A DNA stretch of 64,000 nucleotides from the NCBI GenBank assembly GCA_964016885.1, contig OZ024746.1, positions 74,028,001-74,092,000 of the forward strand. The letters run 5' to 3'. The notes beneath the pieces were generated by a model. The model saw only the letters and a program-made list of their open reading frames with translations, was not told the origin of the DNA and made no database searches. The stretch's first letter is position 1, and each line of letters begins with the position of its first letter. The position numbers and the translations under genes are program-made. Below are positions 28,801-34,411 of this stretch, piece by piece. The DNA is from Eledone cirrhosa. Lineage: Eukaryota.

Positions 28801-29209
28801 ATTAAAATTTGTATATTTATCTAGCAATGTATTTTATATAGAAAATCTTTTGAACTATATGAAATGTATGAAAATTATGTAAACAATATATAGGAAATAC
28901 ATAGATAAGGAAGATTTACCGAAAATAAAGATACAAAAATACTTGTAACTTTAACGCTGACGAATTAAAAAGCTGATTTATTGGATTGTTAAATAATATA
29001 TAAATCCAATAAAAGAAAAGACAGATTAATTATATCTACCAGAAACATCCTTTAAGCTGTTAGAATAACATCAAATCCAATACATACATATATATATATA
29101 CACACACATATATATATATATATATATATATATATATATATATATATATATATATATATATATATATATGGAAAAAATGAAATTTCATTTCTCACTCTTA
29201 GTACGGCTG

Positions 29210-29592
29210 ATACTTAAATATAAGTATGTATACGTACATACATATATATATATAGAGTCGTACAGTAGTATGTATATACATGCATACATGCACACACATA
29301 TATATATATGTACGTATGGGTTTACCGAACATTTATTATAATGTTCGGTTTGCTTGCAAACAAACAGCCCGAATTAAGCCGTACAGTGTTCGGCAACGAT
29401 CGTTGCCCTTTTGTTCAACACTGACAAAGGAACGATGAACTAGTTTCTAGTTTATTAGCTGTCATCAGCACCGTATACCTTCCTGTCAGTCGATTGTACG
29501 TTTGAAAGTATATACTTTCCTTAAGCATATTAACGGCTGAGCAACCTAATTTGCATATCGAGTGAGTTAGTCGGCCGGACGTACCGAAAACT
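29210..29592 (-). mobile_element. Family Z copy with HHR at 29432-29474
   Basis: Reverse complement of the 17218-17540 copy. Core intact, with one stem II mismatch (AGCU/AACU). Confidence 0.85.
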
Positions 29593-29676
29593 CATTATAC
29601 TCATCCCAATTTTTAGTTACTTTTTAATACGTTTATATATATATATATATATATATATATATATATATATATATAT

Positions 29677-29948
29677 ATCAAAGAAAATAAGAGAATCAGT
29701 GTTGCGACGAATGTCATTTATTGGACATATGACAATCGTTTCTCTGGCGACCAGCTCGAGGCACGATCGATGTGATGATGGAACCTTACTCTGAAAATCG
29801 CAAGGTACTCAGATACGTCTTGATTCTACGAAGCAAATTTTCCTATCTTTTTCTTTTTTTTTCTGTGATATCATACTCTGCTCTATGAGAGCATCGAGTG
29901 CTCATACGGCCTACCGCATACGGACGCTTTAAGCATCCAACACCAATT
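29677..29948 (-). mobile_element. Family Y copy with HHR at 29724-29819 (core CUGAGUA, G8 altered)
   Basis: Reverse complement of 31480-31770. Confidence 0.85.
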
Positions 29949-30029
29949 ATATATATATATATATATTGGATTTGATGTTTTATATATATATGTATGTATA
30001 ATACATATATATATATATATATATATATA

Positions 30030-30621
30030 TCGTTTCTGAATTTGTTTAGCAAGATTCTTTATCTGAAATCGTGTGTTGAAACCGATATTGTTATACTTTG
30101 GGAGGGTCATGTTGCCAATAAGAAACACACGCACCAGTTGCTTTCACTTCAATTTAATTTAATATATATTTATAAATTTACAAATTTATAAATTTCTGGT
30201 TGGTTGGTTCCACAACCAGATAGTTGTTTATATATATATATAGTCATAGTTCTTTCGTCACACACTCTGTGACCTCTTCAGTGACTGGGGATTTCTTTCT
30301 TCGTTTCTGTGCCTTTCCTTTCTTCTATCCTACGCCATTTTGTTTGTTTGACACACAAACAAAATGGCGTAGGATAGAAGAAAGGAAAGGCACAGAAACG
30401 AAGAAAGAAATCCCCAGTCACTGAAGAGGTCACAGAGTGTGTGACGAAAGAACTATGACTATATATATATATAAACAACTATCTGGTTGTGGAACCAACC
30501 AACCAACCAGAAATTTATAAATTTGTAAATTTATAAATATATATTAAATTAAATTGAAGTGAAAGCAACTGGTGCGTGTGTTTCTTATTGGCAACATGAC
30601 CCTCCCAAAGTATAACAATAT
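30030..30621. mobile_element. Family X near-perfect palindrome (arms 30085-30347 / 30355-30621) with two HHRs
   Basis: About 265-bp arms with a 7-nt loop; the only difference seen is one AACC unit. HHRs at 30242-30286 (-) and 30416-30460 (+): AGUCA-CUGAAGA-G-GUCACA(GAGUG)UGUGAC-GAAAG-AA-CUA/UGACU. Confidence 0.9.
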
Positions 30622-30724
30622 ATATATATATATATATATATATATATATATATATATATATATATATATGTATGTATGTATATATATATATATATATATA
30701 TATATATATATATATATATATATA

Positions 30725-31050
30725 TTTAGGAATGTATACGTACATACATATATGTATACAGACGTACAGTAGTATGTATATACATACATACATGCACACA
30801 TATATATATGTACGTATGGGTATACCGAACATTTATTATAATGTTCGGTTTGTTTGTAAACAAACAGACAGAATTAAGCCGTACAGTGTTCGGCAACCAT
30901 CGTTGCCCTTTTGTTCAACACTGACAAAGGAACGATGAACTAGTTTTTAGCTTATTAGCTGTCATCAGCACCGTATACCTTCCTGTCAATCGATTGAACG
31001 TTTGAAGGTATATACTTTCCTTATGCATATTAACGGCTGAGCAGCCTAAT
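30725..31050 (-). mobile_element. Family Z copy with HHR at 30932-30974 (GAAA changed to AAAA)
   Basis: Folds back on 31100-31443. Confidence 0.85.
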
Positions 31051-31061
31051 TTTCCAATTAT

Positions 31062-31443
31062 AGTTTTCGGTACGCCCGGCCGACTAACTCACTCGATATG
31101 CAAATTAGGCTGCTCAGCCGTTAATATGCATAAGGAAAGTATATTATTTCAAACGTACAATCGACTGACAGGAAGGTATACGGTGCTGATGACAGCTAAT
31201 AAGCTAGAAACTACTTCAGTTCATCGTTCTTTTGTCAGTGTTGAACAAAAGGGCAACGATGGTTGCCGAACACTGTACGGCTTAATTCGGGCTGTTTGTT
31301 TACAAACAAACCGAACATTATAATAAATGTTCGGTAAACCCATACGTACATATATATATATATATATATGTGTGTGCATTTATGTATGTATATACATACT
31401 ACTGTACGTCTGTATACATATATGTATGTACGTATACATACTT
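31062..31443 (+). mobile_element. Family Z copy with HHR at 31180-31227 (5-nt insertion in loop III)
   Basis: ACGGUG-CUGAUGA-CAGCUAAUAAGCUA-GAAAC-UACUUCA-GUU/CAUCGU. Confidence 0.85.
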
Positions 31444-31610
31444 ATATATATATATATATATATATATATATATATATATATAATTGGTGTTGGATGTTTA
31501 AAGCGTCCGTATGCGGTAGGCCGTATGAGCACTCGATGCTCTCATAGAGCAGAGTATGATATCACAGAAAAAAAAAGAAAAAAATAGGAAAATTTGCTTC
31601 GTAGAATCAA

Positions 31611-31722
31611 GACGTATCTGAGGACCTTGCGATTTTCAGAGTAAGGTTCGATCATCACATCGATCGATCATCACATCGATCGTGCCTCGAGCTGGTCGCC
31701 AGAGAAACGATTGTCATATGTC
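31611..31722 (+). ncRNA. Type-I hammerhead (family Y) with long stem II, intact core
   Basis: GACGUAU-CUGAGGA-CCUUGCGA...UCGCCAGA-GAAAC-GAUU-GUC/AUAUGUC. Helix I is 7 bp including one G-U; AATAAA follows closely. Element spans 31480-31770. Confidence 0.8.
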
Positions 31723-34411
31723 CAATAAATGACATTCGTCGCAACACTGATTCTCTTATTTTCTTTGATATATATATATATATATATATATATATAAACG
31801 TATTAAAAAGTAACTAAAAATTGGCATGAGTATAATATCACAAGCAAATATTTTTCAAAACTGGATTTATACTAAATTATTAGCTATATAAATATAGTTA
31901 TATAAAAATGGAAGGATTTAAAAACAAATATAAAAGAATGAGATTTAGGAATTCACAGCATTTCATTAAAAATCTCTCACATAGCGTAGTTGATCCAATG
32001 AAAACGTATCGTAGAGATATGTTTACATGAAACTAACAATAAATTTGTTGTATGTATGTGTGAGAAACTTATGCTTCGATCGCTTCGACATTTGCTTTTA
32101 TTAGGTTATATATTCCTGTATGTTCCTTGGCTATACAAACTCTGTCAATCAATCAAATTCTCGTAACAGGTGCAGCCGTTATCGAGCTTTGACTGTTTGT
32201 CGATATATAGTATTTCAATGCGTTATAGACATGTTTAGCAGTGTCCATCTGTTCTCCAAGCGCCCAGTATCTCCCCAGATTTACTCTGCCAAGGGACTCG
32301 CGGCCGAAAGTAAGGCTGGTGAGAACCAGTTTTTCCATCCATACCTAAAGATGCCGCTGCCAGAGATTATAGTATTCTGTCTAGGATCCCATTAATTGTA
32401 AATTAAGCGAAGTAATTTACTCATTAATTACACCTCGGTATGTCCGTTTCCAGGATTAAGAACATGATAACTATAAAATATATATCAAACTTGAAAGTCC
32501 GGAATGTCTTAAGCTATATAAATTAAATTTAGCGATATAGATTAACAAAGTCTGGAAATGAAGGCATGCTGTTATCAAAGTGACAAAACATTTTTAGAAA
32601 TATCCTTTTATTCCACATTTGGTAAATTACGCGAAAATGGGGGTTTTAAAGAAAATAAATTTTTCTTTATATCAATCCCTTTTTGTCTAATAAAATTTTG
32701 AAAATAAATGGATTATCAACAAGTAAAAATCCCTTTTAATTACATTAGCATATTTAAATATACGTTTACATACATCATAATTAATAACGACATATGTTTA
32801 AAATGTTGCCAAGAAATCTATAGACTGCAATTTCTAAAAATATTAGTTATTATTTAAATATTAATATAGAATAGCTCTGATATAAATATCGACATAAAAA
32901 AGAGAATATTTATGTCTAAAGTGCAAACTAAAGCGATAGTTAACAGCTTGATATAAGAAATGAGATATGGTTAATATTCAATGCAATTTTATACAGAAAA
33001 TATAGGATCACGAGTAAAATCATAAAATACACAGAATTTAAAATATAATAGGAAGTACTTTGAGAGAATCAAAGTGTGAACAAAATGTTCTATAAGGTAA
33101 AGTAATGTCACATGCAATAGAGTGCATATGCACATATGCATAGAGGTGTGCGTGCATTGCTCGTGTATCTGAGACATTGCAATTAATATACACAGAAACA
33201 TCCTGGATCGTAACTTAAACGATATCGAATACATCACAAAAAGGATATATAAAGGCGCACATGGTTGATTAATGTTTTTCTCCGCTGGTGAGTTTCTTCA
33301 AGATATTGATACATATTTGTTGTTGTGAGCATTCTTAAAAAATGTTTAATAGCAACACTTACACAAGAGAACGAGTTGCCCATTGGAGAATTTTCCTCTA
33401 TTCAGTTGCTTCGTAAATAGTCACACAGCAACACAACTAATGAAGAAGCTATTTGCATGACCTCTCTCCATTCAGTTCAGACGTACTCAGTACGTTAGTC
33501 TCATTTTATCAATCGAACTTTTTACCACTTAACACATCCTCAATTTAAGATATCATTTAATAGATTCATGTGAGAACTGAGATATTCCTGAATGCCCAGG
33601 TTATCTTCGCAACAGTTGATTATCACAAAGCAATGAGAATATCAGCTACATCGAATGTAGACGTGTGAGTGTACCTGCATCATACGCTATAAAGTTCGTC
33701 TACATTCCACATATTAATCACACCCATATACACGCACGCTAACATTCACATATACGTTCACTCTTATTGGCGTTTTTCGGTATCGAGAATTCGATTCCAT
33801 AGAATATATATTTATATTTATATTAAATTTTATTTGTTCTGTGATTACTGCATAAACCTTTTTTTTTTTCTTTTGCAAATTATAATGCTGAACATGGTTT
33901 CTGGATTACTCGTTATCATTCTACTTCCTTTCGAAGTCGTATAATTCTGACAAACCCCCATTGTAAGGTGTATGTTTGTATAGATTTCTCTTTATTTGTG
34001 TACGTTTATGTTTAGAGTGCAACTAAAACAATCTTTAAAAAACCCTGAATATTAATGCATATGGACGAGCGACTTTGGAGAAGTACCCTCTAACATAGCA
34101 TTTCTTGACCAGCGAACGACTACTTTATCGTATGACCTGAAAGTAACGTTAATGATGGTGATGAAAAGGGTAATGATGATGATGCTTATAAGAACAAGGT
34201 TCTATATTTTGTTAATTGTTTAGTCGTGGTGGTGGTGGCGGGTGGTGGGGTGTTTCAAAGCTCGGGACTCTTTTCAGAGCCTCAGAAGCCGGTTTATATA
34301 TTTTCAAAACCGCATATTTGGTCCGAATGTGTACAGTAGAGTGGACTCCACTACAGAAATTTAATGTTCAAGTGGTGTATTTAAACTGGTTGACAAATTA
34401 AATTTATCTCT

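What the first reader, a model, noticed from the sequence alone, without database searches (positions are those of the whole stretch)
29170..31836. 2.7-kb composite palindrome built from three HHR families with seven ribozyme motifs
Seen: the order is Z(-) Y(-) [X(-)|X(+)] Z(-) Z(+) Y(+), separated by TA tracts. 29595-29948 pairs with 31480-31836, including a ~40-bp flank beyond a TA tract. 30085-30621 is an internal hairpin. Z(+) at 31062-31443 can pair with either Z(-) copy. HHRs lie at 29432, 29724, 30242, 30416, 30932, 31180 and 31611. Inference: repeated insertion into the TA tails of earlier elements, or mobilisation of a chimeric Z-Y unit, built a locus able to form long dsRNA or cruciforms and to self-cleave on both strands.
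Basis: partly seen in the sequence, partly recalled or inferred. Interest (0 to 1): 0.75.

Follow-up and report, generated by a model that had tools for sequence, protein, structure and literature searches.

The report
Nested Penelope insertions with copied-back flank
This 2.7-kb mirror-image stretch is a pile-up of three common ribozyme-motif repeats that carry the insertion footprint of Penelope-type jumping genes, plus a backwards copy of about 385 bases of its own neighbouring DNA that was likely made while a break was being sealed; it is most likely an accident of a known kind, not a new functional unit.

Summary
X is the pseudo-LTR of an intact 4.4-kb Penelope-like element (RT + GIY-YIG; 4,826 exact 45-mers). 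Z is a ~420-nt tandem, protein-free repeat (retrozyme type); Y a ~250-nt one. All three insert in (TA)n as two back-to-back arms, one tailed, one short. The outer Z copies form such a pair and share a variant seen in 4 of 332 matches, 3 in this window. So no mobile Z-Y chimera exists. Likely history: old Y; Z insertion with a locally templated inversion, made during or after it; younger X on top. Templated flank copies are known for L1, and this scan noted the twin-arm footprint in this genome and inverted flank copies in Penelope insertions of other genomes. Function, expression and cleavage are untested.

The parts
29067..29082 (+). Left-flank 16-mer, template of the copy at 29964-29979
   Evidence: 4 exact hits in 3.0 Gb, 2 of them this pair
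29080..29169 (.). Left part of the (TA)n target tract
29170..29592 (-). Z1: full ~420-nt Z monomer, tailed end at 29170; motif 29432-29474 (core intact, stem II mismatch)
29586..29602 (-). Z1/flank junction with a 6-nt direct repeat spaced by 3 nt, read as two rounds of microhomology priming (inference)
29594..29633 (-). Inverted copy of the unique 40-bp right flank
   Evidence: 39 of 40 identical; 29-mer has 2 genome hits with up to 1 mismatch
29679..29947 (-). Inverted local copy of Y; motif 29723-29819 with G8U
29964..30030 (-). Inverted left-flank 16-mer (29964-29979), then a 19-mer matching the reverse complement of 29080-29098, then TA filler
30031..30350 (-). X left arm: pseudo-LTR of an autonomous Penelope-like element, with 54-nt tail; motif 30242-30286
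   Evidence: 2 substitutions and 2 indels against the pLTR of intact L091
30352..30621 (+). X right arm, short end; motif 30416-30460
30618..30725 (.). TA tract between X and Z2
30730..31052 (-). Z2: 5'-truncated Z, short end; motif 30932-30974 with G12A; lacks the shared variant
31050..31443 (+). Z3: last 12 nt of a tail plus one Z monomer, short end; motif 31180-31227 with a 5-nt insert in stem III; joined head-to-head to Z2
31483..31767 (+). Y original: older two-armed insertion (inverted 78-nt tail arm, sense core); motif 31611-31721; 16-nt duplication at 31648-31682
31797..31836 (+). Unique right flank (template)
17180..17541 (+). Separate Z insertion 12 kb away (inverted 38-nt tail arm plus sense arm) sharing rare variants with Z1 and Z3

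Best explanation
The locus is three common Penelope-footprint repeats stacked in one TA microsatellite plus an inverted copy of its own flanking DNA, likely built by successive retrotransposon insertions and one template-switching repair event, and it likely has no function of its own. Steps: (1) shown: an older two-armed Y insertion sat between TA tracts. (2) inferred: a Penelope-type enzyme cut the TA tract left of Y and primed reverse transcription of Z RNA from both DNA ends, at its two initiation sites, giving Z1 (tailed end, left) and Z3 (short end, right). (3) shown as sequence, inferred as process: synthesis jumped by microhomology from the 5' end of Z1 to the locus's own right flank, ran backwards through flank, Y and TA, slipped to the left flank (16-mer, then 19-mer) and rejoined; Z2 is either a re-priming on a second Z RNA or the upstream monomer of the original left arm. 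Whether this happened during the Z insertion (about 55%) or at a later break in the Z tail (about 35%) is not settled. (4) shown: the X pair is a truncated two-armed copy of an intact Penelope-like element; inferred: it landed last, in the new TA filler.
For: X abuts a 1,318-aa ORF in a 4,423-bp tandem unit (L091) with RT (Pfam E 2.7e-4, below the curated cut-off) and GIY-YIG (E 5.4e-5, above it) and a CX4CxxC linker. One-tailed/one-short ends: X 20 of 21 auto-paired insertions, Z 24 of 29, Y 16 of 16 among loci fetched by the motif alone. Z1+Z3 fit this rule, Z2+Z3 do not. Z1 and Z3 share a variant with 4 exact 29-mer hits against 328 for the common letter, 3 of the 4 in this window. Right flank unique; left-flank 16-mer 4 hits, 2 here; Y copies share six letters absent from 28 others and the same inversion junction. 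Divergence: X arms 1/262, Y+flank 5/309, Z1/Z3 10/274; X younger than Z, p=0.012. Two-strand priming at two adjacent sites is shown in vitro for a Penelope enzyme (PMC11167929); templated flank copies and inversions are reported for L1.
Against: Single locus; no empty allele or spanning read was seen (one search listed no piece across the Z1/flank junction). The inversion looks younger than Z1/Z3 but not significantly (p=0.19) and is not separable from X (p=0.23). Z2 lacks the shared variant, which needs a second or heterogeneous RNA. The shared variants lie within 28 nt, so local gene conversion could mimic common origin; arms of ordinary Z insertions mostly share no rare variant (12 of 54 within-locus pairs do, 3 of them in this window). 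No clear templated flank copy among 119 other loci (11 flagged, 4 inspected). The enzyme that moves Z and Y was not identified.
Confidence: 0.8

Rival explanations
1. Replication accident unrelated to retrotransposition: after Z was in place as an ordinary two-armed tandem, a stalled fork or break at the Z hairpin or TA repeats switched templates (FoSTeS/MMBIR or end-joining fill-in), replacing about 60 nt of the inner Z tail with the inverted Y-flank copy.
For: Z1+Z2 look like a tandem left arm missing exactly the tail and junction, a layout common in other loci. Y copies differ less than Z1/Z3 (5/309 vs 10/274). A 1.6-kb DNA-level inverted duplication that includes a whole Z insertion exists elsewhere in this genome (L176). 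Short fold-back templated inversions form at yeast breaks without any retroelement (PMC11724301, abstract).
Against: The age difference is not significant (p=0.19). Both edges fall on natural Z landmarks (monomer start; short initiation site), which a random fork accident would not favour.
Confidence: 0.12
2. A chimeric Z-(TA)n-Y unit was transcribed and mobilised as one element.
For: Z sits beside Y across TA at 3 of 56 other loci (L010, L011, L042).
Against: Those Y copies are different insertions (69-91% alike) without the flank; the flank has 2 hits, both here; the copy contains left-flank DNA but no Z3 between left flank and Y; order on the minus strand is Y then Z, not Z then Y.
Confidence: 0.03
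3. Assembly artefact (fold-back or chimeric read).
For: Hairpins with long TA tracts are hard to assemble; no laid contig spans the novel junction.
Against: Every paired segment differs by substitutions and indels; the junctions carry small permuted pieces; the same twin-arm layout recurs at dozens of loci.
Confidence: 0.03
4. Selected functional locus: a source of long dsRNA or ribozyme-trimmed RNAs that silence the three families.
For: Predicted stems of about 190-310 bp on either strand.
Against: Cores are decaying (2 of 7 broken); short palindromes are common in this window and genome; no conservation shown.
Confidence: 0.02

Closest known systems
C-terminal-endonuclease Penelope-like elements, Neptune/Nematis type (Craig et al. 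2021, PMC8557442, passages; Frangieh et al. 2024, PMC11167929, parts 1-2 of 4)
   Same: pLTR with hammerhead, partial tandems, inverted 5'-truncated copy, one-sided tail, microsatellite targeting, RT plus GIY-YIG with CX2-5CxxC linker.
   Different: Tails here are 53-78 nt, not 30-40; the local X copy has lost all but the ORF start; clade not tested by phylogeny.
Animal non-LTR retrozymes (Cervera and de la Pena 2020, PMC7229834, passages; Li et al. bioRxiv 10.64898/2026.07.22.740005, parts 1-2 of 5)
   Same: Z: protein-free ~420-nt monomer, type I-like hammerhead, head-to-tail tandems, low GC, proposed Penelope dependence.
   Different: Head-to-head arms with fixed paired ends are the rule here ('inverted' occurs 0 times in PMC7229834); circular RNA and cleavage untested; Y showed no head-to-tail tandem in the loci examined.
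L1 templated insertions and target-site inversions (bioRxiv 10.1101/2024.08.27.596794, passages: 22 cases, mostly under 250 bp; PMC11702581, passages)
   Same: Neighbouring genomic DNA copied into a retrotransposon insertion by template switching with microhomology.
   Different: Penelope-type cargo; about 385 bp; draws on both flanks; includes an older element; followed by a further arm (Z2) and a later nested insertion.

Membership tests
Endonuclease-positive Penelope-like element (X family) | Single ORF with RT and C-terminal GIY-YIG | tested here: met
   L091, 1,318 aa from Met; RVT_1 E 2.7e-4 (under cut-off), GIY-YIG E 5.4e-5 (over cut-off); whole-ORF scan gave 0 families
Endonuclease-positive Penelope-like element (X family) | pLTR in tandem or inverted copies with one-sided tail | tested here: met
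   4,423-bp tandem; 20 of 21 auto-paired insertions have one short and one tailed end
Neptune/Nematis clades | CX2-5CxxC linker before GIY-YIG; microsatellite targeting | tested here: met
   CX4CxxC at residue 1192; TA flanks; feature as described
Neptune/Nematis clades | Placement by RT phylogeny | not tested
   no reference set fetched
Non-LTR retrozyme (Z) | Short non-coding monomer in head-to-tail tandems with a type I hammerhead per unit | tested here: met
   L030 four units; many partial dimers; 391 exact motif 45-mers
Non-LTR retrozyme (Z) | Self-cleavage and circular RNA | not testable with these tools
   no RNA run on record was listed
Non-LTR retrozyme (Y) | Head-to-tail tandem units | tested here: not met
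   29 motif-fetched loci show solo or head-to-head copies only; Y is better called a non-autonomous Penelope-type mini-element
Type I hammerhead ribozyme | CUGANGA...GAAA...UH core with stems I-III | tested here: inconclusive
   Core and stem I present in 5 of 7, broken in 2; stem II junctions atypical; isolated folds weak (z -0.5 to -2.2); no Rfam hit
Templated insertion at a retrotransposon integration site | Inserted DNA copied from unique sequence next to the site | tested here: met
Templated insertion at a retrotransposon integration site | Made in the same event as the insertion | tested here: inconclusive
   5/309 vs 10/274, p=0.19

The most novel reading that the evidence does not exclude
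The Penelope reverse transcriptase itself, on reaching the 5' end of a retrozyme RNA, jumped to the target locus (its DNA or nascent transcript), copied the still-empty site backwards across both flanks, re-primed on a second retrozyme RNA, and the finished locus then seeded a daughter insertion 12 kb away: one locus recording template jumping, two-RNA use and local hopping by a Penelope enzyme.
Probability: 0.15. Interest if true: 0.55.

Novelty: new member of a known kind. Interest (0 to 1): 0.27.

Why it matters
As a single locus it is a repair scar. Its value is as a record of Penelope-type integration, whose steps after priming are unresolved: paired tailed and short ends in three unrelated families match two-site, two-strand priming seen in vitro, support the idea that retrozymes ride on Penelope enzymes, and show that such insertions can duplicate and invert host DNA. 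The cluster of three Z copies sharing a near-private variant is a lead on local hopping or local gene conversion.

Tried and rejected
Rfam: no hammerhead family at gathering or up to E 10 (only hairpin-driven miRNA-type hits below cut-off, rejected). DNA search with X found nothing because common words are skipped; a pattern search then gave 4,826 hits. Pfam on the whole L091 ORF gave 0 families; PDB sequence search gave only E 0.27 to a GIY-YIG domain. Search for templated flank copies at 119 other loci: 11 flagged, the 4 inspected were other elements' twin arms or a terminal-inverted-repeat element. Local hopping test on 11 nearby Z pairs: 4 share a rare non-CpG variant against 140 of 2,278 background pairs, but one is a DNA duplication with flanks and three belong to one cluster, so it is not established. 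The A at the Z start shared by Z1 and Z3 was dropped as evidence because the junction can supply it. No coding frame found in 24-36 kb beyond repeat-derived ones. Six paper searches listed no paper on templated flank inversions in Penelope insertions; the library is partial and no supplements were read, so this is not proof of absence.
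Full report
Observation. The window lies in a 3.0-Gb, microsatellite-rich genome (G000:C6:74028001-74092000; organism not determined). A scan for core plus stem I finds 5 of 7; left Y has G8U and the middle Z has G12A. Rfam scores none of them and isolated folds are weak, so they are hammerhead-like motifs of the minimal type I kind, activity untested. The predicted fold of either whole strand gives nested stems and leaves the left Z (Z1) out of the long helices.

X. 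The X motif has 4,826 exact 45-mer matches. At L091 it is the pseudo-LTR of a 4,423-bp tandem unit, two copies differing at 1 base, with a 1,318-aa ORF: RT (RVT_1 E 2.7e-4, under cut-off), GIY-YIG (E 5.4e-5, over cut-off) and a CX4CxxC linker, which Craig et al. tie to Neptune/Nematis and microsatellite targeting (PMC8557442, passages). The local pair is a severely truncated copy: one arm ends at the short site, the other 54 nt further on. 20 of 21 auto-paired X insertions do the same (this includes one locus counted twice and two pairs that may bridge separate insertions).

Z and Y. Z is a ~420-nt protein-free monomer with head-to-tail tandems (L030, four units) and head-to-head arms; 391 exact motif 45-mers. 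It meets the sequence definition of an animal non-LTR retrozyme (PMC7229834, passages; 10.64898/2026.07.22.740005, parts 1-2 of 5). One tailed and one short end: Z 24 of 29 (the 5 exceptions not all checked; two are one nested tandem mis-paired by the script), Y 16 of 16 among loci fetched by the motif alone; 27 further Y loci agree but were fetched with a query of that layout. This fits a Penelope enzyme that cuts and extends both strands and starts at two adjacent RNA sites (PMC11167929, parts 1-2 of 4). Which enzyme moves Z and Y is not shown.

The second Y is a local copy. The two Y copies are 93% alike against at most 88% for the other scored candidates, share six letters found in 0 of 28 other copies, and share the inversion junction. 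The 40-bp segment beyond the TA tract is unique flank: 2 hits with up to 1 mismatch, both here. Beyond the other end of left Y lies the reverse complement of 29067-29082, a 16-mer with 4 genome hits, 2 of them this pair, followed by a 19-mer matching the adjacent left-flank microsatellite in permuted order. So 29594-29979 reads as the empty site backwards: right flank, TA, Y, TA, left flank. At the Z1 junction a 6-nt direct repeat spaced by 3 nt suggests two rounds of microhomology priming (inference). A mobile Z-Y chimera is excluded for this assembly; Z beside Y at 3 of 56 other loci involves different Y insertions.

Which Z copies belong together. Z1 has the tailed end and Z3 the short end, so they fit the pairing rule; Z2 and Z3 are both short. 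Z1 and Z3 share a T-to-A change whose 29-mer has 4 exact hits against 328 for the common letter; 3 of the 4 are in this window (17264, 29478, 31148). One more distant locus carries it with other mismatches (3 of 69 loci). Z2 lacks it. Z1 and the 17.2-kb copy share a second rare change 27 nt away. Against a simple reading: arms of ordinary insertions mostly share no rare variant (12 of 54 within-locus pairs vs 155 of 4,793 between loci), and the shared sites are close enough for one conversion tract.

Timing. Substitutions: X arms 1/262, Y plus flank 5/309, Z1/Z3 10/274. X is younger than Z (p=0.012); the inversion cannot be separated from either (p=0.19, 0.23). Either the copy arose as Z was inserted (synthesis leaving the RNA's 5' end, then Z2 as a re-priming from the TA-ended strand), or a later break replaced about 60 nt of inner tail in a Z1-Z2 tandem arm. 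A 1.6-kb inverted DNA duplication holding a whole Z insertion exists elsewhere, so the second route occurs in this genome. No clear templated flank copy turned up at 119 other loci (11 flagged, 4 inspected).

Function. If transcribed through, either strand is predicted to fold into 190-310-bp stems, a possible dsRNA substrate. In head-to-head arms the antisense copy is made first, so 6 of 7 motifs would be trapped in duplex (inference); only Z1 is left free. Expression was not testable (see Tried and rejected). Many other short palindromes lie in the window, so hairpins are ordinary here.

Comparison and verdict. Inverted pLTRs and one-sided tails are known Penelope features; templated flank copies and target-site inversions are known for L1 (10.1101/2024.08.27.596794 and PMC11702581, passages) and at yeast breaks (PMC11724301, abstract). 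This scan's notes report the twin-arm footprint for other repeats of this genome and inverted flank copies in Penelope insertions of other genomes; these are unchecked AI notes and not support. No note was near this locus or matched Z by sequence. The hammerhead numbering (G8, G12) and the names FoSTeS/MMBIR are partly recalled. Verdict: real, well explained, new member of known kinds; interest 0.27.

Noticed in passing
window 17180-17541: Z insertion 12 kb upstream sharing two rare variants with Z1 and one with Z3, without shared flanks: local hop, shared source or gene conversion.
   Followed up: partly
window 20477-21086 and 49402-49631: Two more two-armed X insertions, each with one short and one tailed end.
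   Followed up: yes
window 44737(+), 44976(-), 45293(-), 59616(-): Four further hammerhead-like motifs of other families beside TA tracts.
   Followed up: no
window 48611-48915(+), 53471-54696(-), 55391-56365(+): Fragments of other Penelope-like ORFs (25-65% identical to the L091 protein over short stretches); 52-56 kb is GC-rich and strongly G-skewed.
   Followed up: no
window 17919-18213, 18767-18893, 19017-19233, 36826-36905, 38468-38649, 49870-49981: Short palindromes, probably further two-armed insertions.
   Followed up: no
L091 911-9756 (G000:C1:63066910-63075755): Near-identical 4,423-bp tandem copies of an intact Penelope-like element with an Asn/His/Thr-rich N-terminal insert; probably young.
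   Followed up: partly
L176 1330-2922 and 6177-7767 (G000:C1:193.75-193.76 Mb): 1.6-kb inverted DNA duplication (96-98%) containing a whole Z insertion, with further short local copies nearby.
   Followed up: partly
window 30360-30370; L075 1608-1610: X arms often stop at the same 5' position, just before a YY1-like motif (recalled, not tested): possible transcription start of the element.
   Followed up: no
L119 977-1320: A ~350-bp foreign insertion at the short initiation site inside a Z tandem, showing this AT-rich site is broken in other loci too.
   Followed up: no
window 29314-29591, run X5: Contigs of a run from another organism (organism B) hold many Z-like pieces and a diverged match to the left flank, but almost no Y.
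   Followed up: no
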